In this document: piece by piece, positions 3,243-54,278 of the stretch
How positions within the stretch are numbered: the first letter of the stretch is position 1
How the letters are laid out: each line of letters opens with the position of its first letter
Assembly: GCA_902524385.1 (NCBI GenBank)
Contig: CABZCZ010000001.1
Coordinates: 135,941-199,940, forward strand
Length of the DNA stretch: 64,000 nt
Source of the DNA: an uncultured Alphaproteobacteria bacterium
GTDB taxonomy: Bacteria > Pseudomonadota > Alphaproteobacteria > HIMB59 > GCA-002718135
Reading direction: 5' to 3'
Made by a program: the position numbers and the translations under genes
Notes under the pieces: model-generated
Seen by the model: the letters and a program-made list of their open reading frames with translations, nothing else
Told to the model about the DNA's origin: nothing
The model's database searches: none

Positions 3243-3247
3243 AATTT

Positions 3248-3694: not shown

Positions 3695-3695
3695 A

Positions 3696-4332: not shown

Positions 4333-4940
4333 ACAATATAAATGGTCCGTTAAAAGTTGGTATAGGTGGAGGAATAGGCACAGGAAAAACTAGCTTAACA
4401 GAAGCTTTATGCCGTCATTTATCAAACAGAATTTCAATGGCAGTAATATCAAATGATATTTATACAACTGAAGATGCAGAATATTTAATGAGAGCTCAAG
4501 TTCTTCCTATGGAAAGAATTAAAGGCGTTGAAACAGGTGGGTGTCCCCATACGGCTATCCGAGAAGATTGTTCAATTAATTTACTAGCTGTTGATGAAAT
4601 GAAAAAAAAATTTCCTGATTTAGAATTAATACTTATTGAATCAGGCGGCGATAATTTGGCAGCTACTTTTAGTCCAGAGTTAGTCGATTTAACAATTTAC
4701 ATGATTGATATTGCGCAAGGTGCAGATATTCCAAGAAAAAAAGCTCCGGCAATAAAAAAGTCAGATTTGCTTGTAGTTAATAAAGTTGATTTAGCACCTC
4801 ATGTCGATGTAAATATCGATCAAATGGAACAAGATGTAAAGAAAGCCAGAAATGGATTACCTTATGTTTTCGGTGAAATGAAAAATAGTAACGGAATCAA
4901 AAAAATTTCTGACTTCTTAATTTCTCAAGGTGGTATTTAA
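4329..4940 (+). CDS. ureG: urease accessory GTPase UreG
   Basis: 203 aa. P-loop [10 protein letters not shown] plus [28 protein letters not shown] and NKVDLAP motifs. Confidence 0.95.
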
Positions 4941-14980: not shown

Positions 14981-14990
14981 TAAATTAAGT

Positions 14991-15016
14991 TTGGCCTGCT
15001 TTAAATAGCAGGCCAA
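14991..15016 (+). promoter_or_regulatory. perfect 10-bp intercistronic stem-loop between the binding-protein and permease genes
   Basis: TTGGCCTGCT-ttaaat-AGCAGGCCAA with no U-tail. It sits between the stop at 14980 and the SD at 15023-15028. Confidence 0.6.
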
Positions 15017-15033
15017 ACAACAAAGGAGTTATT

Positions 15034-16008: not shown

Positions 16009-16916
16009 TGAAGGATGGTCAGTCTCTCATTGAAGATAAATTAAATTCAGCAAAATATAAAAAAATATTAAAAGCAAATTTTTTAAAACCTGCAACGTTG
16101 ATTCCAATTTTATTACTCACATTTATCGCTGGTTGTGCCATCTTTGCCCCAATTCTTGCCCCAACTAATCCCTACGATCTAGCTATTGTAAGTATTTTGG
16201 ACTCCAGACTTCCTCCTGGTGAAGTTATGTTTAATGGAACTGTTGCTTGGCTAGGAACAGATGGAGCTGGTCGAGATGTTTTGAGTGCAATAATTTATGG
16301 CTTGCGAACGAGTTTGATTGTAGCTTTAACAAGTGCTGCGATTGCATTAACAGTAGGACTTGTGGTGGGATTAATTGCTGCTTTTTATGGAGGAAGGATT
16401 GATGCATTTTTAATGCGTATTGTTGATATTCAATTATCTTTTCCTGCTATTCTTATTGCTCTCGTTTTATTAGCTCTATTAGGCAAAGGTGTTGATAAGG
16501 TAATAATTGCATTAGCAATTGTTCAATGGGCTTTATATGCGCGTACTGTTAGAGCTACTGCTATTGTGGAGCGCAGAAAAGAATATATTGAGGCTGCTTC
16601 CACATTGGGTCTAAATAATTTTAGAATTATTTTAAAACATCTTTTACCAAATAGTATTTCACCTCTAATTGTTTTAGCTACACTACAAACTGCACACTCA
16701 ATTTCAATTGAAGCAACACTCAGTTTTCTTGGCGTTGGTGTTCCTATTACAGAGCCATCCTTAGGATCATTAATTTCAAATGGATTTGATTTTATTTTAT
16801 CTGGAGCATATTGGATTACTTTTTTCCCTGGCGTAATGTTACTTGCAACTGTTGCCGCAATTAATATTTTTGGAGATCAACTGAGAACTATTTTAAACCC
16901 AAGGCACTCAAAATGA
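16008..16916 (+). CDS. ABC transporter permease (DppC/OppC-like)
   Basis: 302 aa. ATAATG junction with the preceding permease gene. Typical EAA-loop region. Confidence 0.9.
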   Translation: MKDGQSLIEDKLNSAKYKKILKANFLKPATLIPILLLTFIAGCAIFAPILAPTNPYDLAIVSILDSRLPPGEVMFNGTVAWLGTDGAGRDVLSAIIYGLRTSLIVALTSAAIALTVGLVVGLIAAFYGGRIDAFLMRIVDIQLSFPAILIALVLLALLGKGVDKVIIALAIVQWALYARTVRATAIVERRKEYIEAASTLGLNNFRIILKHLLPNSISPLIVLATLQTAHSISIEATLSFLGVGVPITEPSLGSLISNGFDFILSGAYWITFFPGVMLLATVAAINIFGDQLRTILNPRHSK

Positions 16917-16941
16917 GCTATATAAATATTTTAATTCTCCA

Positions 16942-18639
16942 ATGACTGACTTACTTAATATAAGGAAACTCAGTGTATCCTTTAAAATGGAATATGAAAC
17001 AACTGATGCTGTTCGAAATGTTTCTATTACGCTTCGTCCTGGAGAAGTATTAGGTATTGTAGGAGAAAGTGGGGCAGGTAAATCTACAATTGGAAATGCT
17101 ATTGTTAATCTTTTAGAACCACCGGGTGAAATTACAAGAGGGGAGGTTTTATTTAAGGGTCAGGATTTAAGAAATCTTGATGACAAACAAATGCGAGATG
17201 TCCGAGGGAAAAAAATAGGAATGATTTTTCAAGATCCTCAAACTTCTCTTAATCCACTAATGACAATTGGTGGGCAACTTATTGAAACAATAAATAAGAC
17301 AATTAATCTTTATGGTTCTGAGGCAACTAATAAAGTTATAGAGTTACTAGAGTCAGTAGGTATTGATGAACCTGAAGCACGTCTAAATTTATACCCCCAT
17401 CAATTCTCAGGTGGAATGCGCCAGCGCGTGGTGATAGCTTTAGCACTTGCTGGAGATCCTGATCTTATTATTGCCGATGAGCCAACAACAGCACTAGATG
17501 TTTCTATTCAAGCGCAAATTCTTGATCTAATCAAAAAACTCTGCCAAGAACGTCAAGTAGGGGTAATTATTATTACCCATGATATCGGTGTTATTGCAAA
17601 TATATCAGACCGAGTAACGGTTATGTTTAATGGTCAAGCTGTTGAGAGCGGAGAAGTTAAACAAATACTAACAAATCCTAAACATGAATACACAAAAAGT
17701 TTAATCGCGGCTGTACCGCGTGGTGATAGAAAAGTAGAGCGTTTTAAATCTATTGATTATATTGAAGGAGGTGCACAAACACAGCGTCGAATTGATTTGG
17801 ATCAACATTGGTTAGGAAAAAAATTCACCCAACATTACTCTGATACAGCAATTTCTATAAATGACTTGAATAAAAAATATTCTCTTAAAAAAGCTTTTTT
17901 AAAACGCAATCGCTCTTATGTGCACGCTGTTAAAGATGTGTCTCTATCAATTAAAACAGGTGAAAGTTTTGGACTAGTTGGTGAGTCTGGGTCTGGAAAA
18001 AGTACTATAGCTAAACTTGTTGCAGGACTTGTTAGTACGGATAAAGGAAGTATTAAACTTTTTGATCAAGAAGTGACAAATAAAAGTAAAGGTAAAGATG
18101 TCATAGCGGCGAGGCGTAATCTACAAATGATATTTCAAGATCCTTATTCATCGCTAAACGCAAGGATGAGAGTTCAAGATATAGTCTCTGAACCCATAAG
18201 TTATTATAAAACAGCTTCTACAAATATGGAAATGAGACAAATCGTTCGCGATCTCTTAGATCATGTAGGTCTTGGATCAAATGCAATGTTAAAGTATCCT
18301 CATGAATTCTCTGGTGGGCAACGACAAAGAATTTCTATTGCTAGAGCATTAGCATCAAGACCTAAAATTCTTATTTGCGATGAACCAACATCTGCCTTAG
18401 ACGTATCGGTGCAAGCACATATTTTAAATTTACTTAAAGATCTTCAAGATGATCTAGGTTTAACAATTCTTTTTATATCACACGATCTTCCTGTTATTCG
18501 TCAAATGTGTGACCGTGTTGCTGTCATGCGGCATGGTTCTATTTGTGAAATTGCAACAACGGACAGTTTATTTGAAAAGCCTCAACATGAATACTCAAAA
18601 CATCTTCTTGAGTTAATGCCAAAAACTGATTTTATATAA
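16942..18639 (+). CDS. fused duplicated ABC ATPase (DppD/DppF-like)
   Basis: 565 aa. Two Walker A motifs ([18 protein letters not shown]), two signature motifs ([16 protein letters not shown]) and two Walker B motifs. Confidence 0.92.
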
Positions 18640-33115: not shown

Positions 33116-33384
33116 TGGAATCTTTATCAAGGGTTATTTTATTTTTAACATCTTATTTTATCGTTTTAGCTTTATCTTTTAGCATCAATATAGAATTTGA
33201 ATATCTACAAAGTGGATTATTCTTATTTATTTCTATAATTATTGCATCTTGGCTCTATTATTTACATTTTAAGAAAAAAGAATCTCCAGAATTTCAAAAA
33301 GAAGTTTTGTATGTCATGTTTTTTCTCTGTTTTGTAACATCTACATGGTCATTTAAATTAAATTATTTTCATTTGTATGATTAA
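33100..33384 (+). CDS. small membrane protein
   Basis: 94 aa, 3 hydrophobic segments. It overlaps its neighbours by 16 nt and 8 nt. Confidence 0.4.
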   Translation: MQGALMESLSRVILFLTSYFIVLALSFSINIEFEYLQSGLFLFISIIIASWLYYLHFKKKESPEFQKEVLYVMFFLCFVTSTWSFKLNYFHLYD

Positions 33385-33688
33385 TAATTTCTGGTTTTAT
33401 TTTTTCCTAACTCCAGTCTTAGTAGGGACAATTATTTTATCTATTCCATCCTTTTATTACTCATCAATTAATCCTCCAGTATTTGAGGATGCTGTATCAA
33501 CATGTAAAGATATTAGTAATGAAGATGTTTACGCTACTCAATATGGAACGCTTCAAGATAAGTGCATTGCAAATTATATGGGAGAGCCAAGAGATTGGGA
33601 ATACTTTTATATTTTAATTAGCTTTATTGGGATAAGTTTTATTATACCATTATTGATATTTATAACTTATAAATTAATAGTTTCATAA
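33377..33688 (+). CDS. small membrane protein
   Basis: 103 aa, with TM segments at both ends. Confidence 0.4.
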   Translation: MINNFWFYFFLTPVLVGTIILSIPSFYYSSINPPVFEDAVSTCKDISNEDVYATQYGTLQDKCIANYMGEPRDWEYFYILISFIGISFIIPLLIFITYKLIVS

Positions 33689-33762
33689 ATCTTATTCATA
33701 TCAAAACAATATATGACTTTTTTTATTATTCTATATCTTCAAAATATAGATATAATTTAAAT

Positions 33763-33999
33763 GTGAAAAAAATTGAAATCGAAATTGATGAAAATATTGA
33801 AATTATAAAAAATACAATTTTGAGATTGAGCTACATATTTACAGATTATAATTTTTCCCATGAATATAACAAAATTATTATAGAAGGTAAAAATTTAATC
33901 TATGAAGAGATTAAAGAAAAGGTATTTTATTATATTTACAAAGAAAAGATTAATTTACAAAATGCTTCTATTCGAAAAAAAATTTATGAATCTTTCTAA
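33763..33999 (+). CDS. hxsD: candidate HxsD-like small protein
   Basis: 78 aa with a GTG start. It sits directly upstream of the first rSAM gene, coupled by TAATG, as HxsD does. Sequence similarity to the family motif is weak. Confidence 0.45.
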   Translation: MKKIEIEIDENIEIIKNTILRLSYIFTDYNFSHEYNKIIIEGKNLIYEEIKEKVFYYIYKEKINLQNASIRKKIYESF

Positions 34000-35417
34000 T
34001 GAATTTATTTCCATATCAATTTCATAATATCAATAATAAGAAACTTATTACAAATGATGCTGGAGAATTTTTTTTTACAAATGAAAAGCACTTAGATAAA
34101 CTCATAAAAAGAGAGATAGACGGTAAATTTACAAAGTTTTTGTTAAATAAAGGTTTTATGTATGAGAAAGAAAATGACCTGTATTGGAATAATTTCAAAT
34201 ATAAATTAGTAAAAAGAAAAAAACTACCTGATCAACTTAGTTATTTTATGATCATTCCAACTCTAAGATGTAATTTAAATTGCAGTTATTGTCAGGTTTC
34301 AAGAGTTGATGAAAAAGCTAAGAACTATGATTGGAGTGCAGAGGATTTAAAATTATTTTTAAATTTTTTAGAAACTAATAATACCACAAGAGGAAAAATA
34401 GAATTTCAAGGTGGAGAACCAACATTGCGGTTAGATATTATCAATAAGATTCAGCATTGGATTAAAAATAATAACTTAAATTTTGATTTAATAATTTGTA
34501 CTAATTTACAAAATTTATCCAATGATTTTAAAAAATTATTAGAAAATGAAAATGTATTCATAAGCACATCTATAGATGGGAAAAAATCAATTCATCAAAA
34601 ACAAAGGACAAAAGATAAAGGTACAACAGATGAATTTTATAAAAATTTAGATTTCGTATTAAAAAATTATGGAAATGATAAAATTTCAGCCCTGCCTACT
34701 TTTACTGATTTTTCTAAAATAGATGAAACTGTTGAATATTATAAAGAGTTAGGTCTAAAATCTATATTTCTTAGACCTGTTAATTTTCAAGGATTTGCCA
34801 GAAAAAAATATCCATCATCTTTAAATCAAGTCGATTTGTGGACAGATGCTTATTTTAAATCTTTAGATAAGATATTTTTAAATAATCATAAAAGTAAGGA
34901 TAGAATTTTAGAATTTGGATTTGAAAATATTTTAAAAAGAATTTTTAACGTTGGTTATAATGGTTATGTAGATTTACGTAGTCCAAATTTCTATGCAAAA
35001 GATAATGTAATTATTGATTACGATGGTAAATTTTACCCATCCGATGAAGCTAGAATGCTAACTAGAATTAAGTTAATGGATTTTTCAATTGGTAATTTGA
35101 GAGATGGCTTTGATAATGATAAGCTTTCAAAATTTAATTGGAATTCAATGAATGAAACAAATCCTGATTGTATTAATTGTGCATATCAACCTTATTGTGG
35201 AATTGATATTGTCGATGATATATCAAGATATAGTAGGGCTGATTTACCAAAATATTTAACTTCTTTTTGTCAAACTCATATGAAAAAATTTAATTATGTA
35301 TTTGATAAAATTATATCAATGGATCCAGTTAATTTATTTAATATTAATGGTCATCTAACTAAAAATTTTAATTATCAACCACCATTTGGACAAATTTACT
35401 ATGATACGACTCACTAG
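33999..35417 (+). CDS. hxsB: radical SAM/SPASM-type maturase (HxsB-like)
   Basis: 472 aa. The CxxxCxxC cluster motif is in IIPTLRCNLNCSYCQV, followed by GGEPTL. C-terminal Cys cluster NPDCINCAYQPYCG...FCQTH. Confidence 0.8.
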   Translation: MNLFPYQFHNINNKKLITNDAGEFFFTNEKHLDKLIKREIDGKFTKFLLNKGFMYEKENDLYWNNFKYKLVKRKKLPDQLSYFMIIPTLRCNLNCSYCQVSRVDEKAKNYDWSAEDLKLFLNFLETNNTTRGKIEFQGGEPTLRLDIINKIQHWIKNNNLNFDLIICTNLQNLSNDFKKLLENENVFISTSIDGKKSIHQKQRTKDKGTTDEFYKNLDFVLKNYGNDKISALPTFTDFSKIDETVEYYKELGLKSIFLRPVNFQGFARKKYPSSLNQVDLWTDAYFKSLDKIFLNNHKSKDRILEFGFENILKRIFNVGYNGYVDLRSPNFYAKDNVIIDYDGKFYPSDEARMLTRIKLMDFSIGNLRDGFDNDKLSKFNWNSMNETNPDCINCAYQPYCGIDIVDDISRYSRADLPKYLTSFCQTHMKKFNYVFDKIISMDPVNLFNINGHLTKNFNYQPPFGQIYYDTTH

Positions 35418-36492
35418 AACAATAGAACATGAATTAACGGTAAAAGAATCTTTTGTTGTAAAAATTGTTAATAAAAATTTTGAATTACTTGAAGAGAATG
35501 AAGCAATATCTAAAAATAATGGTAATTTCATAGAGGTTATTACAAAATATGGTAAATTTAAATTTGAAAATATAGATGAGCCATTATCAATAGATGAAGT
35601 TTTAATAATATTTACTGAGGTAAATAAATGTCAAAGATTCTTTAGACCATCAGCTACAATCAATACAATTTTATTAACGGAAGAATGTGATCAACTTTGT
35701 ATTATGTGCTCTCAACCACCTAAAAATAAAAGATACGATCATTTTGATCTATTTTATGAGGCTGCTATGCTAATACCTTTTAATTCGACTTTAGGTATTT
35801 CTGGAGGAGAGCCAACTTTACTTAAAAAAAATTTATTTAAATTCCTTAATAGGGTTATTACTGTGAGAAATGATATTCGCTTTCATATTTTGAGTAATTG
35901 TCAGCATATTGAGAATGAAGATATTAAAATATTAGCTAAATTGTCAAAAAATATTTTATGGGGAATACCTGTATATTCTCATATTCCTCAAACACATGAT
36001 ACTATTGTCGGTAAAAAAGGCTCTTTTGTAAGAGTTATGGAAAGCTTCAACTATTTTATACAAACTGGTTCTAGAGTTGAATTAAGAACAGTCTTGCTTC
36101 AACAAAATTACGAAGATTTACCAAAATTATCAGAATTTATAACTACACATCTAAACTGGATTGAGTTTTGGGCAATAATGCAATTGGAAAATTTTGGATA
36201 CGCTAAGATGAATTGGGATAGAATATTTTTCGATAATTCAAAAAGCTTTGAAAATTTAGGTTATGCAATTAACACTATTTCTGCAAAAAGAATGAATGTT
36301 TCACTTTATAACTTCCCTCTTTGTACAATACCAGATTTCTATAGAAAATATGCAGTTAGATCAATTTCTGATTGGAAACAAAAATATCTTGATGAGTGTA
36401 CGGGCTGTGTTGAAAAAGATTATTGTGGTGGATTTTTTGAATGGTACAATAAAGAAAAAGGATATAATAAAATTGGATTGAGAAAGTCATGA
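35386..36492 (+). CDS. hxsC: radical SAM maturase (HxsC-like)
   Basis: 368 aa (or start at ATG 35401). Motifs LTEECDQLCIMCSQ (CxxxCxxC) and GGEPTL, with a C-terminal CTGCVEKDYCGG. It overlaps hxsB and joins hxsA through an ATGA junction. Confidence 0.8.
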   Translation: MDKFTMIRLTRTIEHELTVKESFVVKIVNKNFELLEENEAISKNNGNFIEVITKYGKFKFENIDEPLSIDEVLIIFTEVNKCQRFFRPSATINTILLTEECDQLCIMCSQPPKNKRYDHFDLFYEAAMLIPFNSTLGISGGEPTLLKKNLFKFLNRVITVRNDIRFHILSNCQHIENEDIKILAKLSKNILWGIPVYSHIPQTHDTIVGKKGSFVRVMESFNYFIQTGSRVELRTVLLQQNYEDLPKLSEFITTHLNWIEFWAIMQLENFGYAKMNWDRIFFDNSKSFENLGYAINTISAKRMNVSLYNFPLCTIPDFYRKYAVRSISDWKQKYLDECTGCVEKDYCGGFFEWYNKEKGYNKIGLRKS

Positions 36493-37040
36493 TTAAATTT
36501 TTAATATCTACACTAGCGGCCGCAGGTTTATTAGATTCTCCTGAAAATATTGACGGAAATAATAAAGGTGAAGAAAAAACTAAAACAATTGAAAATGCTT
36601 TTTTTAACTATTTTAATTATGACTTAGGTTATACTTTGGCTGCACATAGCTCTCATGGATCACATGGATCTCATGGATCACATGGATCTCATCAATCTCA
36701 TTCTAATTCTGGACATAGTAGTCATCAAAGTCATGTAAGTCATCAATCTTCTAGCCAACCAAGTTCTCCTATAGTCCCTAAAGGTGGTAACAACGCTACA
36801 CCACCAAAATCAATTCTTCCGGAAACTCCTCAAAAATTAAAAGGCTCAATGGGAGAATTTAAAATTAAAACACTACAAGTTCAGGCGGTTCTTTATGCTT
36901 ATGGTTATTATAATGGATCACTTGATGGAATAATAGGACCAGATACTAAAATCGCGATTATGAATTTTCAAAAGGATTACGGCTTAACTGTTACAGGTAC
37001 TTTATCAGATGAATTACTTAAATATCTTCAAATCAAATAG
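36489..37040 (+). CDS. hxsA: His-Xaa-Ser repeat protein (HxsA-like) with C-terminal peptidoglycan-binding-type domain
   Basis: 183 aa. Signal-like N-terminus, HSSHGSHGSHGSHGSHQSHSNSGHSSHQSHVSHQS tract, Pro/Ser linker, and a C-terminal YGYYNGSLDGIIGPDTKIAIMNFQKDYGLTVTG motif. Confidence 0.85.
   Translation: MIKFLISTLAAAGLLDSPENIDGNNKGEEKTKTIENAFFNYFNYDLGYTLAAHSSHGSHGSHGSHGSHQSHSNSGHSSHQSHVSHQSSSQPSSPIVPKGGNNATPPKSILPETPQKLKGSMGEFKIKTLQVQAVLYAYGYYNGSLDGIIGPDTKIAIMNFQKDYGLTVTGTLSDELLKYLQIK
36645..36749 (+). repeat. in-frame His-x-Ser codon repeat, including 4 tandem CATGGATCW 9-mers
   Basis: 36654-36689 is CATGGATCA CATGGATCT CATGGATCA CATGGATCT. Degenerate CAT-NNN-TCN/AGT units flank it. Confidence 0.9.
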
Positions 37041-37413
37041 TTTTTATATTTTAACATTAGTCTTATTACTTGGAATAATAATTGGTTCATTATGGAAAAT
37101 ACCATTAAAATATTTTCTAATTAATATTTACCAAGAGGATTTTAGCGAGTTAGTTTATAAATGTGATAATTCTATGAGAGATCACTTTATTGCAAAAGCT
37201 CAAGTTTTAAAAAATTATAATGAAGATACTATTGAAAATTTAGAACAAACTGAATTAGGTTTAATTGATTGCCATGATTATGATTTATTAAGAAAAAAAT
37301 TAATTTTACTTGGTCTTACAAACAATGAACTTTCATATATGGGCTTGAAAGCTATAGAAAAAAATGGAGCTGATTTAAAAAAATTAGTAGAAATACATGA
37401 AATACTTTATTAG
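37009..37413 (+). CDS. hypothetical N-terminally anchored protein
   Basis: 134 aa with one TM segment (FYILTLVLLLGIIIGSLW). It overlaps hxsA by 32 nt and the next gene by 17 nt. Confidence 0.45.
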   Translation: MNYLNIFKSNSFYILTLVLLLGIIIGSLWKIPLKYFLINIYQEDFSELVYKCDNSMRDHFIAKAQVLKNYNEDTIENLEQTELGLIDCHDYDLLRKKLILLGLTNNELSYMGLKAIEKNGADLKKLVEIHEILY

Positions 37414-38647
37414 TTTTTTATTAATTTTTTTTTCTGTAAGTGTATTAGCATCTTCTTTTTATTCTAAACTATTAAAAGAAGCAGCTTTAAAAAATAATTT
37501 TAAACAAATATCAGTTGTAAATAAAAAATTTGATAAAAAAAAATCTTCTTTAGGAAAGAAGTTTTTTCATGACACGATGTTAAGTTTTAATTCTGATATG
37601 TCTTGTGGCACTTGCCATCTAACTAAATTTAGTTCTGCAGATGGGTTACCAAATGCTGTTGGGGTAGGAGGAGAAGGTGAGGGAATTGATAGAATGTTTA
37701 GTGACGGTGAAATTGTTCCTAGGAATACTTTACCTCTATGGGGAAGGGGATCAAAAGATTTCAATACACTTTTTTGGGATGGTAAAATTACACAAGTTGA
37801 TGGCGAAATAATAAGTCAATTAGGCTTATTAACAAAAAATTATGCTTCAATGGATAATGAATATGAAATCATTCAGGATTTTTATCAAGATCCACTTATA
37901 TCAGCAGTTCACCTACCATTTGTAGAAATTAGAGAATTAGTTGCAGATGATGAAGAAGTAACAGAAGTTTTAAAAAAAGAAAGTATTGATACTGCTATGA
38001 ATGTTTTTTATGACTTAACTGAGAGAATAAAAAAAGATTCAGACTATACAAAAGAAATTAAAGAGATTTATAATTTAGAAGTCGATCAAATAGAGTTTTT
38101 TGTTGTTGCAGATGCTATTGCACATTTTATTAGAGATGAGTTTGCAATTAAAGAAACTATATTTTCTGATTTTGTATTTAATGACGGAAAATTAAATGAC
38201 GATGCAATAAGAGGAGGTTTGTTATTTTATGGAAAAGCTAAATGTAGTAGTTGCCATAGTGGAACTTTATTTTCAGATCTAGATTTTCATTCAATTCCAT
38301 ATCCTCAAGTCGGTTTTGGTAAAAATGGCTTTGGAGTAGACTATGGAAGATTTAATGTAACTTACGACCCTGACGATTTATATAAGTTTAGAACGCCTCC
38401 GTTGATAAATGTTGAGTTCACCAAGCCTTATTCACATTCCGGATCTGTTTTTGATTTAAAAGAAGCAATTAGATATCATTTTGATCCTCTGAAAAATTTG
38501 GATTTACAAAATATCTCAGATCTAGAAAGAGTTGAAATGTATAAAAAACTTAAAATATCAGGTCAAAATATTAATCAGATACCCTACTTAGATGAAAATG
38601 AATTAGATCAATTAGTTGAATTTTTAAAAACTTTAAGTTTTAAATAA
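37397..38647 (+). CDS. di-haem cytochrome c peroxidase / MauG-family protein
   Basis: 416 aa with a signal peptide. Two CxxCH motifs (CGTCH, CSSCH). Family signature FRTPPLINVEFTKPYSHSGSVFDLKEAIRYH. Confidence 0.85.
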   Translation: MKYFISFLLIFFSVSVLASSFYSKLLKEAALKNNFKQISVVNKKFDKKKSSLGKKFFHDTMLSFNSDMSCGTCHLTKFSSADGLPNAVGVGGEGEGIDRMFSDGEIVPRNTLPLWGRGSKDFNTLFWDGKITQVDGEIISQLGLLTKNYASMDNEYEIIQDFYQDPLISAVHLPFVEIRELVADDEEVTEVLKKESIDTAMNVFYDLTERIKKDSDYTKEIKEIYNLEVDQIEFFVVADAIAHFIRDEFAIKETIFSDFVFNDGKLNDDAIRGGLLFYGKAKCSSCHSGTLFSDLDFHSIPYPQVGFGKNGFGVDYGRFNVTYDPDDLYKFRTPPLINVEFTKPYSHSGSVFDLKEAIRYHFDPLKNLDLQNISDLERVEMYKKLKISGQNINQIPYLDENELDQLVEFLKTLSFK

Positions 38648-38654
38648 TATTTAA

Positions 38655-39422
38655 ATGAACTTATTGACTAAATTTAGTTTTTATACAATTCTGGTATTTC
38701 TAATTGTATTTAGTTTAAGTTATTTAAGTGGATTATATGAAACGGAAATAAAACCTCGTTTTAATGGTTATTCGAAAAATAATATTTCTTTTAAGAATAA
38801 AAATGAAATTAAAATCAATGGCAATAAAATTAATTCAGAAATAATAAGTTTTTTACATTATTACAACGAAAATTTAAAATTAGATTCATTAAAGGACAAT
38901 GTAAATTTAAAAAAGATAAACATAAAGTTTTTAGAATGTGAAACAAATAAGTATAAAAAAAATAAACAAGTTTCTAGTAATAAAAAAGATTTCAAATTCG
39001 ATCCAAATATTAAATCCAATTTTATATTTAATATAAATTGTTTACATAATCTTATTCAAAAAGGAGAAAAAACCCATATTATATATGATATCAATCAGTA
39101 TAATTGCTCATGGAGAGGTTACAAAAAAGTTTATCAAATTGATAATCACTATTTATTAGATATAACCGAAAAAGTATGTGGAACTTTACCATCTAGATTT
39201 CATAATTTTTATTTAGTCAAAATAGATAATAATGAAATTTATATTGTCGATTCAATATTATCAGGAAGATATCCAATAAATAGGTTAAATTATTTTAAAA
39301 TAATTAATAAAAAAATAAAAATTATTACCGATAATTGTAATGAGGGCTCTAAAAATTGTTTTGGTTTAAGGCCAGAATATTTTGAATTAAATTTTGAAGA
39401 AAACTTTAACAATAACTCTTAG
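38655..39422 (+). CDS. hypothetical anchored protein (last gene of the block)
   Basis: 255 aa with an N-terminal TM segment. Asn/Lys-rich. It starts 7 nt after the MauG-like gene. Confidence 0.45.
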   Translation: MNLLTKFSFYTILVFLIVFSLSYLSGLYETEIKPRFNGYSKNNISFKNKNEIKINGNKINSEIISFLHYYNENLKLDSLKDNVNLKKINIKFLECETNKYKKNKQVSSNKKDFKFDPNIKSNFIFNINCLHNLIQKGEKTHIIYDINQYNCSWRGYKKVYQIDNHYLLDITEKVCGTLPSRFHNFYLVKIDNNEIYIVDSILSGRYPINRLNYFKIINKKIKIITDNCNEGSKNCFGLRPEYFELNFEENFNNNS

Positions 39423-40059
39423 CTTTTTTTGCAGCATCTAGAACTTGTATCAATAAATTTCTTTTATCTAAAATTTGTTCTTTCTCAAAATTACTTTTAT
39501 TCCATAATCCTTCGTAAATAACATTATTTACTAAATAAACACCTTTGCCATGCCTTTCACCATCTTTGAAATTTCCATAATAATATTCATTTGGTGAAAA
39601 AAAATAAATACCTAAACCTTCTCTAAGACCATTTTTGTATAAGCCTAAATATCTATGAGAAGAATTTTCCCAAGATGTTAGTCCATATCCATGATTTTTA
39701 TTTAAATATATTTGCCCAATGTAATTACCATTAGAAAATTTCTGATTAACGCAAGCTAAACCATTTTCAGGAAGTATATTTTGTTTTTTTTCAGCAACTA
39801 ACGTCTTATTTTTATTTTTAATATATAGATTATATTCTGCTACTATAGTTTCTCTATCTCCATAACTACATTTTTTATTGTTTGTTTTATAAATTACTCC
39901 ATCATTTTTCTTACAATAATAATCTTTAATAATTGCTGCTTTAGTTTCAGTAATTTTGTAACTATTATTATTTGATAAATTATTTGATGTCGTTCCACCT
40001 AAACATCCATATAAAAATAAAAAGGACATAAGTATTAAACACTTATTTATATTTAACAT
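39406..40059 (-). CDS. MORN-repeat lipoprotein
   Basis: 217 aa. Lipobox-like LFLYGC. Repeats of the YxGxxxxGxxxGxG type (YIGQIYLNKNHGYG, YLGLYKNGLREGLG, YYGNFKDGERHGKG). Confidence 0.7.
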   Translation of the reverse strand: MLNINKCLILMSFLFLYGCLGGTTSNNLSNNNSYKITETKAAIIKDYYCKKNDGVIYKTNNKKCSYGDRETIVAEYNLYIKNKNKTLVAEKKQNILPENGLACVNQKFSNGNYIGQIYLNKNHGYGLTSWENSSHRYLGLYKNGLREGLGIYFFSPNEYYYGNFKDGERHGKGVYLVNNVIYEGLWNKSNFEKEQILDKRNLLIQVLDAAKKAKSYC

Positions 40060-40109
40060 TTTCTAGACATTCTAAATCATAGTTTTTTTTATTAAACAAA
40101 AATAAAGTA

Positions 40110-40565
40110 TTATAAAAATGAAATTTGATCAATGGGAGACATATGCCCATTTTCAATTTCATCTAATGTAGAATTCGCTTTTTCTATTAATTTTATAGCA
40201 TTATTTAGAGCCCACATTTGTTTTGTTGCTAAATTTTCGTCAAAAACCTTGTTGCCTAAGTCTATTTGATTTTGTTCTTCTTTAATTTTATTAATTATAT
40301 ATTCTGCAGCACTGATCGCATTAAAAGAGACATTAGTAAGTTTTGAAGCTTTTCCCATAAACTCTTTTCTCATCATTATTGTTTCTTTAAGATCAAGTCT
40401 TTCTCTTCTTTTTTTTAACCACCCTTCATTAGCCGCCTGTTTTCTAAGTGTAGACAATGAATAGTTGAATTCAGTAGCGATATCTTGAAGAGTAGGGTAC
40501 TCATTTCTATTTCCTTTTATATAATAATTACGTGCTTCAGTGTAATCAGGACGTTTTCTTGTCAT
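40110..40565 (-). CDS. phage-type HTH protein (terminase-small-subunit-like N-terminus)
   Basis: 151 aa. ...YYIKGNRNEYPTLQDIATEFNYSLSTLRKQAANEGWLKKRRE resembles the HTH of phage small-terminase/DNA-packaging proteins. Called by pattern only. Confidence 0.45.
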   Translation of the reverse strand: MTRKRPDYTEARNYYIKGNRNEYPTLQDIATEFNYSLSTLRKQAANEGWLKKRRERLDLKETIMMRKEFMGKASKLTNVSFNAISAAEYIINKIKEEQNQIDLGNKVFDENLATKQMWALNNAIKLIEKANSTLDEIENGHMSPIDQISFL

Positions 40566-40648
40566 AAAAACATTAATGCTAATGATTCTCTTTAAAGAAA
40601 GTTCTAGAAAAAAATATTTGTTTAAAAAAATTTAATAATGTGAATAAA

Positions 40649-41383
40649 TTAGTTTTTTTTATTACTTAAAAGTAAATTTTTAAATTCTTCAACAGCAACT
40701 GTTGCAGGTTTGTGAATGGCAAAATCAAATTGATTTTGATTACGTGATGGTTCTAAATTTAATTCAACAGTTGGCTTATTCATATCTTTGAACATTGTAA
40801 CAAATCCAGCGGCAGGGTAGACCTCTCCAGAGGTACCAATTGAAACAAACATGCTAGATTGCTCAGCTAAATCGTGAATTTCATCCATTTGCATGGGCAT
40901 TTCACCAAACCACACAATGTGAGGTCTCATTTGTGAACCGCATTCAGGGCATTTATGGGTCTCATTTAGGTCCACCAGCCACTCAAATACATGATTATCA
41001 TTCATCATACATCTAGCTTTATTTAACTCACCATGCATATGAATTATTGATGATGACCCGCCAATCTCATGCAAATTATCGATATTCTGTGTAACTATAT
41101 GAATTTTATATGTTTTTTCAAATTCATGAAGTAAAATATGGGCCCTATTTGGCTTAATTCCTGAATTTAGTTCTTTTCGACGTTTATTATAAAAATCATA
41201 GACAAGAGTAGGGTTTCTATAGAATCCTTCTGGACTGGCAACATCTTCAATCCTATGATTATTCCAAAGTCCATCTGAGTCTCTGAATGTTTCAATCCCA
41301 GACTCTTTGCTTATACCAGCACCCGTTAATATAAAGATCTGGGAATCAGCTGAAATCTGCGGTAATTGTTCCATTTGATACAC
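40649..41383 (-). CDS. cobB: NAD-dependent protein deacylase (Sir2/CobB family)
   Basis: 244 aa. Motifs GAGISKESGIETFRDSDGLW, QNIDNLHE, the CPECG zinc site, and a GTSG-type segment. Confidence 0.9.
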   Translation of the reverse strand: MYQMEQLPQISADSQIFILTGAGISKESGIETFRDSDGLWNNHRIEDVASPEGFYRNPTLVYDFYNKRRKELNSGIKPNRAHILLHEFEKTYKIHIVTQNIDNLHEIGGSSSIIHMHGELNKARCMMNDNHVFEWLVDLNETHKCPECGSQMRPHIVWFGEMPMQMDEIHDLAEQSSMFVSIGTSGEVYPAAGFVTMFKDMNKPTVELNLEPSRNQNQFDFAIHKPATVAVEEFKNLLLSNKKN

Positions 41384-41503
41384 TATATACAGTATTTTAT
41401 TACACGTGAAAATCTATATCTAGTTTGTAATTTTAGAAATAGATTTAGATAATATATATAAATTATTGAAATATATACTTAATATTTATTGCTTGACTAT
41501 TAT

Positions 41504-41527
41504 TTACGATAACTGTAATTATCGTAA
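41504..41527. promoter_or_regulatory. 9-6-9 inverted repeat TTACGATAA-ctgtaa-TTATCGTAA (lox/dif-like site or operator)
   Basis: A perfect 9-bp inverted repeat with an asymmetric 6-bp spacer. It lies 9 nt upstream of the recombinase ATG and just downstream of TTGACT (41493-41498). Confidence 0.4.
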
Positions 41528-41535
41528 TATATATT

Positions 41536-42594
41536 ATGGTTAAAATATCACTTAATGATAAAGTAACAAAGCTAAAGGAAAAATCTAAGGCTAAGAACAC
41601 ACAAGATAAGTACCAAGGTGATTGGTTAAAATTTATAGATTACTGCAATGATAAATATAAATGTAGCCCATTAGATGTAGATGATATGGATAGCGCATAT
41701 GCATTAACTGCAAATTATATGGATTGGCTACATGAAGATCCAGAAGCTAAAATACTAAAAGGCACAAGCAATATTCCTGGAAGAGAAAAAGTAAATAACA
41801 ACCCCTACTCCTCAACTGCCTATAAAGCATCGACCATTCAAAGAATTCTTGCATCAATTACTTATAAATACAGAGTAAACGGATTTCAATTTGACAGAAA
41901 AAATCCAAATATATCAGAAACTATAAGCGCTATAGTTAGAGATGAAAAGAATAATCAATCTGGGCAAGCAAAAGAGTTATTAAAAAAAGATATTGAAAAA
42001 ATAATAGATAATATACCGACAGATAAAGATGATATTAGAAATATTAGAGATAAAGCTCTCATACTAGTAGGTTTTTATAGTTTTTGTAGAAGATCAGAAC
42101 TGCTTGGCATGAAATATGAACATTTAAACTTTGAAAAAGATGGAATTCAAGTTTTAATTCCCTTTTCAAAAACAGATCAAAAGGGTGAAGGCAGAATGAT
42201 ATATTTACCAAGAAATGATTCTACGTATTGTCCAGTTAAAGCACTTAAAAACTGGTTAGAAAGTGCTTTGATTGATACTGGCCCCCTCTTTTATAAGATT
42301 AACAAAGCAAATAATATTGAAAAATATATTCTCAATAATAAAAATCAAAAAGTAAGTTTAACAGATACAAGTTTTGTTATAATTTTAAAGAAGAGAGCCG
42401 AAGAAGCAGGGTTAAATAATTGCGATAAAATTTCTGGTCATAGTCTAAGGATTGGATCGATTACTCAAGCTAGGATGAATGGAGTTCCAACTCATGAAAT
42501 TATGGCTCAGAGCGGTCATAAAACAACACAGATGATTGATAGGTATACTAAGTTAACAAATATTAAAGAAACAAGTGCTGCAAAAAAATTATGA
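41536..42594 (+). CDS. tyrosine recombinase/integrase, Cre-like
   Basis: 352 aa. Catalytic pattern ...CRRSEL... (Arg), HSLRIGS (His-x-x-Arg), GHKTTQMIDRYT (His...Tyr). The overall layout resembles Cre (DIRN...; SGHS.R.G...). Confidence 0.9.
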   Translation: MVKISLNDKVTKLKEKSKAKNTQDKYQGDWLKFIDYCNDKYKCSPLDVDDMDSAYALTANYMDWLHEDPEAKILKGTSNIPGREKVNNNPYSSTAYKASTIQRILASITYKYRVNGFQFDRKNPNISETISAIVRDEKNNQSGQAKELLKKDIEKIIDNIPTDKDDIRNIRDKALILVGFYSFCRRSELLGMKYEHLNFEKDGIQVLIPFSKTDQKGEGRMIYLPRNDSTYCPVKALKNWLESALIDTGPLFYKINKANNIEKYILNNKNQKVSLTDTSFVIILKKRAEEAGLNNCDKISGHSLRIGSITQARMNGVPTHEIMAQSGHKTTQMIDRYTKLTNIKETSAAKKL

Positions 42595-53168: not shown

Positions 53169-54278
53169 TTAAACAAATGGAATATCGCAAATTTCTCCTA
53201 CATATTTCTTTGAATCAATCAATATGTCGAAATTACCTTTAATAGTAAAATATGGTTTATTTATCATTGCTATGCCAATTACTTTATTGAATGTTGGTGA
53301 AAAAACTGCAGATCTTATTTCACCAATGATTTTATCATCTATAGTCAAATTAATAGCTGATCTTAAGTTTATTTTATCTAAGTTTATTTTAACACCCATT
53401 AATTTTTTTTCTATTCCACTTTTTTGAATTTTAATTAAATTATCTTTTCCAAGAAATTCTATATCATTATCTAAATTAACAAATTTATCTAATCTACATT
53501 CAAATGGATTATCATTTATATCAATATCATTTCCGTATGATAGCAAAGCACCTTCAATTCTTTCAATTTGATGGGGGCATCCTGGTTTAACATTAAATTC
53601 ACTACCTTCTTCAAATAATAAATCGTATAATTCTAATCCTGATTTAGAATCCTCTACATAAATCTCCACACCGCCCTGCTTTGACCAACCTGATCTAGCA
53701 ATTAAATGTTTAGAATTTTTAAAATTAAAATATTTAAAGTTATAAAATTTCAAATCTAAAATTTTTTTACCAAAAATTTTTTCTAATAAATTAAATGCTT
53801 TTGGACCTTGTACTGCCAAAATATTTACGTCAGGTTCAAAAATTGAAACCTCTAATTTTTTTCCAATAGCAAGGCCTTTAGCAAATAACATTACATCTGA
53901 GTCAGCAATTGAAATCCACCATTTTTCATTATTAAATTTTAGTACAACTGGATCATTAATCATGCCTCCATTTTCATCAATAATTGGACAATAATAACAT
54001 TTACCATCTAGGGCCTTACTTAAATCTCTGCATGTCATTAATTGAACTAACTGATAAGAATCCTTGCCACTAATTTCTATTTGCCTCTCAGCTGCAACAT
54101 CCCATACCTGAACGAAGTTTTTTAAATGATGATATGTTTCTTCCATACTCTCCTCAAAACCTGCTGGAAGAAGCATATGATTGTATATTGTATAAGAAGT
54201 TAGACCCTGGTTTTCAATTCTAGATGAATAAATAGTACTTCTTAATCTTCTTGATTTGGCTACAAATTGATTAAGCAT
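53169..54278 (-). CDS. dmdA: GcvT-family aminomethyltransferase, probable DMSP demethylase
   Basis: 369 aa. The N-terminus ...[30 protein letters not shown]... and [16 protein letters not shown] resemble the DmdA branch of the GcvT fold. Subfamily assignment needs phylogeny. Confidence 0.6.

What the first reader, a model, noticed from the sequence alone, without database searches (positions are those of the whole stretch)
36489..37040. HxsA here looks like an exported, peptidoglycan-tethered His-rich protein rather than a small RiPP precursor
- **Domain order read from the translation:**
  - a hydrophobic signal-like N-terminus (MIKFLISTLAAAGLL);
  - the HxS tract (residues 53-87);
  - a Pro/Ser-rich linker (SSSQPSSPIVPKGGNNATPPKSILPETPQK);
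  - a C-terminal LQVQAVLYAYGYYNGSLDGIIGPDTKIAIMNFQKDYGLTVTGTLSDELLKYL segment.
- **PG-binding match:** the C-terminal segment fits the PG_binding_1 consensus (LGYY.G..DG.fG..T..A...FQ...GL...G).
- **Topological puzzle:** cytoplasmic Fe-S enzymes would have to modify the repeat before Sec export.
- **Possible role (hypothesis):** the end product could be a wall-anchored His array in the periplasm, for example a metal (Ni/Zn/Cu/Fe) buffer or relay.
Basis: partly seen in the sequence, partly recalled or inferred. Interest (0 to 1): 0.7.

Follow-up and report, generated by a model that had tools for sequence, protein, structure and literature searches.

The report
Known wall-anchored HxsA, six-gene variant
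The gene encodes HxsA, an exported, cell-wall-binding His-Xaa-Ser repeat protein whose architecture is already the known family design and was shown in 2026 to be a periplasmic anti-phage effector in E. coli. This marine copy is a divergent member with two extra periplasmic partner genes.

Summary
ORF 36489-37040 (+) encodes a 183-aa protein with four parts: a short hydrophobic signal-like N-terminus, ten HxS repeats (residues 53-87), a Pro/Ser linker, and a C-terminal PG_binding_1 domain (Pfam E=4e-14; high-confidence three-helix model, rmsd 1.0-1.4 A to the best-matching solved peptidoglycan-binding modules).

This is not special to this locus. The curated HxsA model is 190 positions long and matches the protein end to end. 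About 105 of 117 homologues carry PF01471, and 109 of 112 full-length ones have the same N-terminus. Li et al. (Nat Commun 2026) showed experimentally that E. coli HxsA needs its signal peptide and peptidoglycan-binding domain. It is matured by HxsB/C/D, acts in the periplasm and blocks phage DNA entry. The "topological puzzle" is therefore already answered, and the metal-buffer idea remains untested speculation.

What differs here:
- The host looks like a SAR11-type marine bacterium.
- The cassette has six genes: HxsD-B-C-A plus a membrane-anchored TIGR03982 protein and a secreted MauG-like di-haem enzyme.
- This six-gene form was found in every environmental relative examined (20 of 21 genome loci in the same order, 4 of 4 metagenome lineages).
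- The repeat tract is twice as long and has no Arg or Lys, which fits poorly with the published electrostatic DNA-binding model.

Verdict: a new, divergent member of a known kind. Interest is modest.

The parts
33763..33999 (+). Divergent hxsD (78 aa). Its stop overlaps the hxsB start.
   Evidence: No NCBIfam hit on its own. An HMM built from the ORFs sitting just upstream of hxsB in 14 related loci hits this ORF at E=2e-15, and no other of 192 window ORFs scores. The C-terminal 'YKEKI..N..IRKKIY' aligns with the 'LLNDYxLRE' region of Klebsiella HxsD (hhalign E=0.0017; alignment A3).
33999..35417 (+). hxsB, radical SAM/SPASM maturase (472 aa)
   Evidence: TIGR03978 scores 393.8 bits against a cutoff of 370. 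PF04055 is present. The translation shows CNLNCSYC and a C-terminal CINC...C motif.
35386..36492 (+). hxsC, radical SAM maturase (368 aa from the TTG; metagenome gene calls start at 35401, giving 363 aa)
   Evidence: TIGR03977 scores 305.4 bits against a cutoff of 267.9. The translation shows CDQLCIMC and CTGC...C motifs. The 363-aa gene call appears.
36489..37040 (+). hxsA (183 aa), the finding itself
   Evidence: TIGR03979 scores 90.5 bits, below its cutoff of 121.65, but the match is end to end (residues 3-182 against profile positions 7-188 of 190). Profile alignment to Klebsiella HxsA gives 99.8% probability, E=2e-30.
36489..36533 (+). HxsA residues 1-15: signal-like N-terminus carrying the family motif F.I.(S/T)L.AAG
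   Evidence: K3 is followed by a 12-residue uncharged hydrophobic run. 109 of 112 full-length homologues have the equivalent, and 91 of 112 have an A[AF]G motif (alignment A1). It aligns with the signal peptide MKKFNFAALLPGFLALNNSVWA of Klebsiella HxsA.
36645..36749 (+). HxsA residues 53-87: ten HxS repeats ending in SHQSS
   Evidence: Searches give 11 His, no Lys or Arg, and net charge about 0 at pH 8. SHQSS occupies the position of SHRSS, the site of the +8 Da modification in E. coli. Among homologues the terminal motif is SHRSS in 49 of 115 and SHQSS in 7.
36750..36848 (+). HxsA residues 88-120: Pro/Ser linker with the conserved (S/A)TPP.SILP motif
   Evidence: Alignment A1 shows P111 invariant and T104 nearly invariant. 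The region is disordered in the AF2 model.
36849..37037 (+). HxsA residues 121-183: PG_binding_1 three-helix domain
   Evidence: Pfam hit, PDB sequence hits, AF2 model and Foldseek hits.
37009..37413 (+). TIGR03982 / PF27798 His-Xaa-Ser system protein (134 aa). It is a bitopic membrane protein with an extracytoplasmic domain of about 100 aa, and its start overlaps the hxsA 3' end by 32 nt.
   Evidence: TIGR03982 scores 90.5 bits against a cutoff of 40. PF27798 is marked on identical gene calls. A 19-residue hydrophobic anchor spans residues 11-29. Invariant CD..MR.H, DC.DYD..RK, AIE and HEI(R)Y motifs, including two Cys, appear across 17 sequences.
37397..38647 (+). His-Xaa-Ser system-associated MauG-like di-haem enzyme (416 aa) with a secretion signal
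   Evidence: TIGR03981 scores 377.2 bits against a cutoff of 340. PF03150 is present. Two CxxCH motifs (CGTCH, CSSCH) and the N-terminus MKYFISFLLIFFSVSVLA|SS are in the translation. PDB hits are di-haem peroxidases, the MauG-like 'Di-heme enzyme' 6e1c, and MauG itself.
38655..39422 (+). Lineage-specific downstream ORF (255 aa, N-terminal hydrophobic segment). It is probably co-transcribed but is not part of the conserved cassette.
   Evidence: It starts 8 nt after the MauG-like gene. It has no family hit and no homologue in any of 21 related loci. It is present only in near-identical TARA contigs.

Best explanation
This is hxsA, the effector gene of a His-Xaa-Ser (HXS) system of the six-gene type, in a SAR11-like marine alphaproteobacterium.

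**Proposed mechanism**
1. HxsA is made with a short Sec-type signal.
2. Its intrinsically disordered HxS tract is covalently modified in the cytoplasm by the radical-SAM pair HxsB/HxsC with HxsD. By analogy with E. coli this happens at the terminal S-H-x-S-S motif, here SHQSS.
3. The still-unfolded protein is exported.
4. The C-terminal PG_binding_1 domain docks it on the sacculus.
5. In this cassette type two further extracytoplasmic proteins, the membrane-anchored TIGR03982 protein and the secreted MauG-like di-haem enzyme, most likely carry out or assist a second, oxidative maturation step in the periplasm.
6. The end product is a wall-tethered, modified His/Ser array. By homology with the E. 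coli system it most likely acts as a periplasmic barrier to phage genome entry.

**Shown here:** gene identities, domain architecture, full-length homology to enterobacterial HxsA, conservation of the six-gene order, and the secretory or membrane signals on the two extra proteins.

**Inferred:** Sec export of this copy, a periplasmic second maturation step, and the anti-phage function of this variant.

My confidence is about 0.9 for 'HxsA of an HXS system, exported and peptidoglycan-binding' and about 0.5 for 'anti-phage in this variant'.
For: - **Family assignments.** HxsB and HxsC score above their curated cutoffs, as do TIGR03982 and TIGR03981. HxsA matches TIGR03979 end to end.
- **PG-binding domain.** PF01471 E=4e-14. 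The structure model and fold matches to solved PG-binding modules agree.
- **Homology to the studied type.** hhalign against Klebsiella HxsA gives 99.8%, E=2e-30 over 186 columns.
- **N-terminus.** The hydrophobic segment is conserved in 109 of 112 homologues and absent from HxsB/C/D.
- **Cassette conservation.** The order hxsB-hxsC-hxsA-TIGR03982-MauG-like is conserved in 20 of 21 genome loci; in the remaining locus the last two genes lie inverted upstream. It is also found in 4 of 4 further metagenome lineages.
- **hxsD.** A divergent hxsD is identified by a position-specific profile.
- **Experiments on E. coli HXS.** Signal peptide 1-22 and the PG-binding domain are required. HxsA is periplasmic. 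Processing depends on HxsB/C/D. A +8 Da modification sits on SHRSS. The system blocks 110 of 113 phages at DNA entry (PMC13128918).
- **Neighbourhood.** Near the cassette here are ORFans and a tyrosine recombinase. In relatives the flanks carry helicases, nucleases, integrases, resolvases, plasmid RepB and Gabija GajB.
Against: - HxsA scores below the curated TIGR03979 cutoff (90.5 against 121.65 bits).
- No signal-peptide predictor was run. The hydrophobic run is only 12 residues and is followed directly by Asp, with no clear AxA cleavage site.
- The tract has no Arg or Lys and is uncharged at seawater pH. This weakens direct transfer of the 'basic repeats bind DNA' model.
- The four-gene E. 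coli system works without a MauG-like enzyme, so the six-gene type may make a chemically different product with a different role.
- Defence-island evidence is thin: GajB appears in 2 of 19 loci, PADLOC 2023 has no HXS model, and no relatives were found in viral contigs.
- No experiment exists for any six-gene system.
Confidence: 0.6

Rival explanations
1. The wall-tethered His array would be a periplasmic metal (Ni/Zn/Cu/Fe) buffer or relay, and the modifications would tune the coordination chemistry.
For: The tract holds 11 His within 35 residues and has no competing basic residues. The closest non-HXS NCBIfam match of the MauG-like enzyme is the MbnH family (112.5 bits). From my own knowledge, MbnH modifies the copper-binding protein MbnP. 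The published study did not examine metals. A urease cluster and a Nik/Opp-type ABC transporter lie in the same window, but they are 18-35 kb away.
Against: Among 139 ORFs flanking 19 related cassettes, no metal-transport or metal-regulator family appears in the 25 most frequent Pfam families. The flanks are mobile-element and defence-like genes. The distribution is patchy and includes plasmids, which is typical of accessory or defence functions. The homologous E. coli system has a demonstrated anti-phage phenotype that needs every repeat. Simple His-rich metal binders do not need two radical-SAM enzymes.
Confidence: 0.12
2. The six-gene type would build a protein-derived redox cofactor or cross-link on HxsA or on the TIGR03982 protein. 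The radical-SAM step would come first and MauG-like oxidation second, as in TTQ or CTQ biogenesis. The product would be a wall-bound catalytic or electron-transfer protein, not a DNA-entry barrier.
For: A secreted MauG-like di-haem enzyme accompanies hxsA in every environmental cassette examined. A second CCP_MauG paralogue lies next to the cassette in 9 loci. The TIGR03982 protein has invariant Cys, His and Tyr positions in its extracytoplasmic domain. NCBIfam's short name for TIGR03981 is 'SAM_quin_mod'. The QHNDH maturation radical-SAM enzyme appears among the weaker HxsB matches.
Against: No dehydrogenase or other catalytic partner is conserved in the cassette. HxsA has no Trp or Cys, which are the usual cofactor precursors. 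Four-gene systems are functional without the MauG-like enzyme.
Confidence: 0.15
3. This is the classical RiPP reading. HxsA would be only a precursor, and a small modified HxS peptide would be excised and released as the active product.
For: Radical-SAM/SPASM maturases usually act on RiPP precursors (the HxsB matches). Small HxS-repeat families HxsA2-4 exist, with profiles of 81-96 positions. N-terminal processing depends on HxsB/C/D.
Against: The PG-binding domain is conserved across the family and is required for function in E. coli. The active species recovered from the periplasm covers residues 48-214, which includes the PG-binding domain. Linker motifs are conserved between the tract and the domain.
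Confidence: 0.05

Closest known systems
E. coli / Klebsiella four-gene HXS anti-phage system (HxsD-HxsB-HxsC-HxsA; Li et al., Nat Commun 2026, PMC13128918)
   Same: The gene order D-B-C-A is the same. The two radical-SAM enzymes have the same Cys motifs. HxsA has the same architecture: signal peptide, spacer ending in '(Y/F)(T/I)(L/A)AxH', HxS repeats ending in S-H-x-S-S, a Ser/Pro linker and PG_binding_1. Full-length profile homology is shown.
   Different: HxsC is only 34% identical, and HxsA falls below the TIGR03979 cutoff. The tract has ten repeats with no Arg, against five repeats with three Arg. The terminal motif is SHQSS instead of SHRSS. HxsD is too divergent for TIGR03976. Two extra conserved genes, TIGR03982 and the MauG-like gene, are absent from the Klebsiella and Agrobacterium cassettes. 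No experimental data exist for this type.
Six-gene HXS cassettes of Rhodobacterales/Hyphomicrobiales and marine metagenomes (NCBIfam TIGR03976-TIGR03982; Pfam PF27798)
   Same: The gene content and order are identical. Identities to the window proteins are 36-47% for HxsB, 40-52% for HxsC, 41-50% for TIGR03982 and 36-51% for the MauG-like protein. The N-terminal AAG motif, the HGSHGSH core, the STPP.SILP linker motif and the PG domain are shared.
   Different: Most of those tracts have 5-7 repeats and end in SHRSS with 1-2 Arg. The window clade has 9-10 repeats, no basic residue and SHQSS. The window also has a lineage-specific 255-aa ORF downstream, and it lacks the second CCP_MauG paralogue seen in 9 loci.
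MauG / MbnH-type periplasmic di-haem protein-modifying enzymes
   Same: The TIGR03981 protein has two CxxCH motifs, a secretion signal and sequence similarity to MbnH, MauG and di-haem peroxidases. It is encoded next to its presumed protein substrate, as MauG and MbnH are (the latter from my own knowledge).
   Different: It belongs to a separate curated family: 377 bits to TIGR03981, against 112 bits to MbnH and 75 bits to MauG, both far below their cutoffs. The substrate and chemistry are unknown, and the presumed substrate HxsA has no Trp.
PG_binding_1-anchored periplasmic or wall proteins (SltB3, SleB, CtpB, endolysins)
   Same: The three-helix fold is the same, with rmsd 1.0-1.4 A and 28-38% identity among the close matches. 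The LGYY.G..DG..G..T..A...FQ consensus is shared.
   Different: In those proteins the module targets an enzyme to the wall. Here it carries a disordered, post-translationally modified repeat and no catalytic domain.

Membership tests
HxsA (TIGR03979, His-Xaa-Ser repeat protein) | Scores at or above the curated HMM cutoff | tested here: not met
   90.5 bits against a cutoff of 121.65. The match is nevertheless end to end (residues 3-182 against profile positions 7-188 of 190), E=1.2e-25.
HxsA (TIGR03979, His-Xaa-Ser repeat protein) | Tandem His-Xaa-Ser repeats (five or more) ending in S-H-x-S-S | tested here: met
   Ten HxS units at residues 53-87 with terminal SHQSS. The Ser, His and C-terminal Ser shown to be essential in E. 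coli are retained.
HxsA (TIGR03979, His-Xaa-Ser repeat protein) | C-terminal PG_binding_1 domain | tested here: met
   PF01471 E=4.2e-14, a confident three-helix model and Foldseek hits to PG-binding modules.
HxsA (TIGR03979, His-Xaa-Ser repeat protein) | N-terminal signal peptide | tested here: inconclusive
   K3 plus a 12-residue hydrophobic run is present, conserved in 109 of 112 homologues, and aligned with the Klebsiella signal peptide. No SignalP-type predictor was available, and no clear AxA site follows the run.
HxsA (TIGR03979, His-Xaa-Ser repeat protein) | Full-length homology to experimentally studied enterobacterial HxsA | tested here: met
   hhalign of A1 against Klebsiella HxsA gives 99.8% probability, E=2.1e-30, over 186 columns.
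HXS system (Li et al. 2026) | Adjacent paired radical-SAM maturases HxsB and HxsC | tested here: met
   TIGR03978 scores 393.8 (cutoff 370) and TIGR03977 scores 305.4 (cutoff 267.9). CxxxCxxC and the C-terminal Cys motifs are present.
HXS system (Li et al. 2026) | Small HxsD protein (TIGR03976; LYW and LLNDYxLRE motifs) upstream of hxsB | tested here: inconclusive
   There is no TIGR03976 hit. The 78-aa ORF in the HxsD position matches a profile of positional orthologues at E=2e-15. Besides the Klebsiella HxsD control, 2 of those 14 reach TIGR03976 at E below 1. The link to Klebsiella HxsD is weak (hhalign E=0.0017, probability 16%).
HXS system (Li et al. 2026) | Gene order hxsD-hxsB-hxsC-hxsA | tested here: met
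   Coordinates are 33763-33999, 33999-35417, 35386-36492 and 36489-37040, all on the + strand and overlapping.
HXS system (Li et al. 2026) | Periplasmic, HxsB/C/D-dependent processed and +8 Da-modified HxsA that confers phage resistance | not testable with these tools
   These are experimental properties, known only for the E. coli four-gene system.
Six-gene HXS variant (with TIGR03982 and TIGR03981) | TIGR03982/PF27798 membrane protein and MauG-like di-haem protein immediately downstream of hxsA | tested here: met
   TIGR03982 scores 90.5 (cutoff 40) and TIGR03981 scores 377.2 (cutoff 340). The same order appears in 20 of 21 genome loci and 4 of 4 metagenome lineages.
Small HxS-repeat RiPP-type precursors (HxsA2/HxsA3/HxsA4) | Short (about 80-100 aa) repeat peptide scoring above the NF038296/NF038309/NF038313 cutoffs | tested here: not met
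   Scores are 20.5-22.5 bits against cutoffs of 48-65, and only the repeat region matches. The protein is 183 aa and carries a folded C-terminal domain.
Tat-exported protein | Twin-arginine motif in the N-region | tested here: not met
   The N-terminus is MIKFLIS, with no Arg.

The most novel reading that the evidence does not exclude
In the six-gene HXS type, which appears to be the usual form in marine and environmental bacteria, HxsA would be matured in two compartments. Cytoplasmic radical-SAM chemistry would come first, followed by periplasmic oxidation by the MauG-like di-haem enzyme with the TIGR03982 membrane protein. The product would be an uncharged, cross-linked or oxidised His/Ser array on the cell wall. 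Its activity, whether anti-phage or metal/redox-related, would not rest on electrostatic DNA binding and would differ mechanistically from the E. coli model.
Probability: 0.2. Interest if true: 0.6.

Novelty: new member of a known kind. Interest (0 to 1): 0.28.

Why it matters
The core claim, that HxsA is an exported, peptidoglycan-tethered protein, is already in the family definition and was demonstrated experimentally in 2026. The finding therefore adds no new biology.

Three points may be useful to others:
- **A likely sampling bias.** All 20 genome loci with the conserved order, the one rearranged locus and all 4 further metagenome lineages found here carry two extra extracytoplasmic genes. 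The published survey, dominated by Klebsiella and E. coli genomes, reports more than 99.8% four-gene systems. The six-gene form may be the common one outside Enterobacteria.
- **A test of the published model.** The window's HxsA has a long repeat tract without Arg or Lys. That makes it a natural test of the idea that basic repeats bind DNA.
- **Ecology.** If the anti-phage role holds, this would be an envelope-level defence carried on a variable region of a SAR11-like genome, a group of great ecological importance.

Tried and rejected
- **Scan with alignment A1.** It was repeated with the 14-sequence alignment A2.
- **Bias of that scan.** The search pattern SHGSH[GS]SH[QR] favours Gly-rich tracts. 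The 21 of 21 six-gene count is therefore not an unbiased census. Klebsiella and Agrobacterium four-gene cassettes were found separately through HxsC.
- **Viral contigs.** The scan found no HxsA relatives.
- **PADLOC 2023.** It has no HXS models and gave only weak pVip-type radical-SAM hits.
- **Promoters and terminators.** The scan of 33300-39800 gave no excess over shuffles, so operon limits remain undefined.
- **Source organism.** The exact HxsA sequence appears only on short TARA contigs with no taxon name. The SAR11-like assignment rests on GC content and a 71%-identical named DmdA.
- **Haft & Basu 2011.** The paper (J Bacteriol; the original description as I recall it) is not in the library, so its content is not cited as evidence.
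- **Membrane-anchor reading.** HxsA's N-terminus as a membrane anchor was rejected because the hydrophobic run is only 12 residues.
- **Tat export.** Rejected because there is no Arg in the N-region.
- **orf255 as a cassette member.** Rejected because it has no homologue in related loci.
Full report
**1. What is in the sequence**

ORF 36489-37040 (+) encodes 183 aa, and its ATG overlaps the stop codon of the upstream gene (ATGA).

- **N-terminus.** MIKFLISTLAAAGLL has Lys3 followed by a 12-residue uncharged hydrophobic run (mean Kyte-Doolittle 2.17). The best 19-mer window scores only 1.01, so the run is too short for a membrane helix. HxsB, HxsC and HxsD, and the cytoplasmic controls DmdA and UreC, have nothing comparable.
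- **Repeat tract.** Residues 53-87 hold ten His-Xaa-Ser units with X = S,G,G,G,G,Q,S,Q,V,Q. They are encoded by a 9/18-nt tandem DNA repeat.
- **C-terminus.** It matches Pfam PF01471 PG_binding_1 at E=4.2e-14 (52.9 bits, cutoff 23; residues 130-178).
- **Structure.** An AlphaFold2 model built on 24 homologues gives pLDDT 89-96 for residues 121-183 as three helices, and a disordered chain for residues 1-120. Foldseek against the PDB returns peptidoglycan-binding modules as the best hits: SltB3 crystallised with NAG-NAM-pentapeptide, the SleB N-terminal domain, SltB2, CtpB and the 1lbu DD-peptidase, with rmsd 1.0-1.4 A over 53-59 residues. Sequence search of the PDB agrees.

The one soft point is the signal peptide. 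No dedicated predictor was available, and in this clade the hydrophobic run is followed directly by Asp16, with no obvious AxA site.

**2. The architecture is the family's, not a peculiarity of this locus**

- NCBIfam's HxsA model (TIGR03979) is 190 positions long. This protein aligns to it from residue 3 to 182 (profile positions 7-188). The score of 90.5 bits is below the curated cutoff of 121.65.
- A database search gave 117 homologues of 146-258 aa, and about 105 of them carry a precomputed PF01471 hit.
- A 24-sequence alignment shows five conserved elements: the N-terminal F.I.(S/T)L.AAG motif, a (Y/F)TLA.H entry into the tract, the HGSHGSH core, an STPP.SILP motif in the linker, and the PG domain.
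- Of 112 full-length homologues, 109 have a basic residue followed by an uncharged hydrophobic run in the first 40 residues.
- A Klebsiella plasmid HxsA reads MKKFNFAALLPGFLALNNSVWA|SD..., then HRSHSSHRSHSSHRSS, a Ser-rich linker and the PG domain. It aligns with the present family over 186 columns at 99.8% probability, E=2e-30.
- The small 'RiPP-precursor-like' HxS proteins are separate families, HxsA2/3/4, with profiles of 81-96 positions. This protein matches them only in the repeats and far below their cutoffs.

**3. What is already known experimentally**

Li et al. (Nat Commun 2026, PMC13128918) studied the E. coli four-gene HXS system.

- Replacing the signal peptide or mutating the PG-binding domain abolishes function.
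- Wild-type HxsA is recovered from the periplasm.
- N-terminal processing requires HxsB, HxsC and HxsD and their Fe-S and motif residues.
- A +8 Da modification maps to the SHRSS motif.
- Each HxS repeat is needed.
- The system blocks phage DNA entry for 110 of 113 coliphages.

Their model has maturation in the cytoplasm, then export and anchoring to peptidoglycan. The model fits the disordered state of residues 1-120 predicted here. From general knowledge, Sec exports unfolded chains post-translationally.

The paper does not mention metals, haem or MauG.

**4. The surroundings: a six-gene cassette**

Upstream of hxsA:
- hxsB scores 393.8 bits against TIGR03978 (cutoff 370).
- hxsC scores 305.4 bits against TIGR03977 (cutoff 267.9).
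- A 78-aa ORF at 33763-33999 sits ahead of them and has no library hit on its own. A profile built from the ORFs in the same position in 14 related loci hits it at E=2e-15 and hits nothing else among 192 window ORFs. Its C-terminal motif aligns with the LLNDYxLRE region of Klebsiella HxsD. I read it as a divergent HxsD.

Downstream, overlapping hxsA by 32 nt:
- A TIGR03982/PF27798 protein (90.5 bits, cutoff 40) has a 19-residue membrane anchor. Its roughly 100-residue domain carries invariant CD..MR.H, DC.DYD..RK, AIE and HEI(R)Y motifs.
- A TIGR03981 'His-Xaa-Ser system-associated MauG-like' protein (377 bits, cutoff 340) has a canonical signal peptide (…SVSVLA|SS) and two CxxCH haem motifs.

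The 255-aa ORF that follows is not conserved elsewhere.

**5. How general the six-gene form is**

- A scan of one genome per GTDB species found 23 loci, 21 of them full cassettes. Twenty have the order hxsB-hxsC-hxsA-TIGR03982-MauG-like. In the one exception the last two genes lie inverted upstream.
- Four further, mutually distant metagenome lineages also have PF27798 and CCP_MauG genes directly after hxsA.
- The Klebsiella plasmid and an Agrobacterium pAt plasmid cassette lack both genes.
- The search pattern was biased towards Gly-rich tracts, so this is not a census. Still, the six-gene form is clearly common in environmental Alphaproteobacteria and others.
- The published survey, dominated by enterobacterial genomes, reports more than 99.8% four-gene systems.
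- The extra genes are already catalogued (NCBIfam names, Pfam PF27798). I found no paper that discusses them.

**6. How this HxsA differs from the studied one**

- The tract is twice as long: ten repeats and 11 His, against five repeats.
- The tract has no Lys or Arg, against three Arg in Klebsiella. Its calculated net charge at pH 8 is about 0.
- The terminal motif is SHQSS. The Ser, His and C-terminal Ser that were essential in E. coli are kept, and the Arg is not.
- Close relatives differ by one repeat unit, nine against ten.

The published proposal that 'basic-residue-enriched' repeats engage DNA electrostatically therefore transfers poorly to this variant. If the function is conserved, it should depend on the modified His/Ser array itself.

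**7. Host and neighbourhood**

- The window has about 28% G+C and encodes DMSP demethylase DmdA and urease.
- Near-identical sequences come only from TARA ocean assemblies.
- The closest organism-named DmdA (71% identity) is from a Pelagibacterales single-cell genome. I infer a SAR11-like host.
- The cassette is flanked by ORFs without family matches. A MORN-repeat protein, a Sir2-family protein and a tyrosine recombinase lie within 5 kb.
- In 19 related loci the 139 flanking ORFs are heterogeneous. The most frequent Pfam families are a second CCP_MauG paralogue (9), helicases, SNase, HTH regulators, integrase, resolvase, RepB and HNH. No metal-transport family is among the top 25.
- Two loci have a strong Gabija GajB neighbour.

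This looks like an accessory, mobile or defence-type context and not a metal-homeostasis operon, although the evidence is modest.

**8. Most likely mechanism**

- **Shown here:** the identities, the architecture, conservation of the cassette, and the extracytoplasmic targeting signals on the two extra proteins.
- **From the literature on a homologue:** cytoplasmic HxsB/C/D-dependent maturation, periplasmic location, PG-domain dependence and the anti-phage function.
- **Inferred:**
  - This HxsA is exported by Sec and docks on peptidoglycan.
  - The MauG-like enzyme and the TIGR03982 protein add a second, periplasmic maturation step.
  - The product acts as a periplasmic barrier to phage genome entry.

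I put about 0.9 on the first layer (an HxsA that is exported and wall-binding) and about 0.5 on the anti-phage function for this subtype.

Rivals:
- A protein-derived redox cofactor or cross-link system made by radical-SAM plus MauG-like chemistry.
- A released small peptide, which is unlikely given the conserved and required PG domain.

**9. Verdict**

The finding is a correct reading of a known architecture. The protein is a new, divergent member of the HxsA family in a catalogued but experimentally unstudied six-gene variant. Novelty is low for the claim as made. Residual interest lies in the periplasmic MauG-like step and the Arg-free tract.

Noticed in passing
window 1689-1974 (-), inside the urease alpha gene 1536-3242 (+): Rfam 5_ureB_sRNA scores 98.5 bits, antisense to a gene that NCBIfam calls urease subunit alpha. 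The family was defined antisense to Helicobacter ureB, so the hit probably reflects conservation of the urease coding sequence and not a real sRNA in this organism.
   Followed up: partly
window 131-4940 and 13385-18639: A urease gene cluster and a Nik/Opp/Gsi-type ABC transporter (substrate-binding protein plus fused ATPase) lie 18-35 kb upstream of the HXS cassette. They bear on nickel supply but are not linked to hxsA.
   Followed up: no
window 53169-54278 (-): DMSP demethylase DmdA scores 515 bits against a cutoff of 410. The best organism-named relative (71% identity) is from Pelagibacterales bacterium SAG-MED31. With about 28% G+C this points to a SAR11-like host.
   Followed up: partly
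L006:8979-10553, L009:11865-13436, L011:11862-13433, L012:11856-13430, L013:11865-13436, L022:12093-13667 and others: Nine flanking ORFs carry a CCP_MauG domain. In several Rhodobacterales cassettes an ORF of about 524 aa sits directly after the MauG-like gene, and these are presumably the nine. The window has no counterpart.
   Followed up: partly
window 38655-39422 (+): A 255-aa ORF with an N-terminal hydrophobic segment starts 8 nt after the MauG-like gene. It has no family match and no homologue in 21 related loci, and is present only in near-identical TARA contigs.
   Followed up: partly
window 39406-42594: Just downstream of the cassette lie a MORN-repeat protein, a 151-aa ORF without matches, a Sir2-family protein (PF02146, E=1e-45) and a tyrosine recombinase (PF00589; phrog_1 integrase). 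G+C dips to 24% at 32-36 kb and 38-40 kb. This may be a genomic island, but no att repeats were searched for.
   Followed up: no
window 36643-36701; P0001-P0007: The HxS core is a 9/18-nt DNA tandem repeat. Relatives at 68-96% identity carry 9 or 10 HxS units, which suggests copy-number change by slippage.
   Followed up: no
window 37009-37413 and 16 orthologues: The TIGR03982 protein has two invariant Cys, two invariant His and a C-terminal HEI(R)Y motif in its extracytoplasmic domain. It could be a partner or substrate of the MauG-like enzyme. It also has a weak PADLOC '4TM effector' hit (E=0.0017), which is probably meaningless.
   Followed up: partly
L005-L022 flanks: Two related loci carry a Gabija GajB helicase next to the HXS cassette (best E=7e-245). 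One cassette sits on an Arenibacterium plasmid (L009), and many HxsC hits are on Klebsiella, Rhizobium and Agrobacterium plasmids.
   Followed up: no
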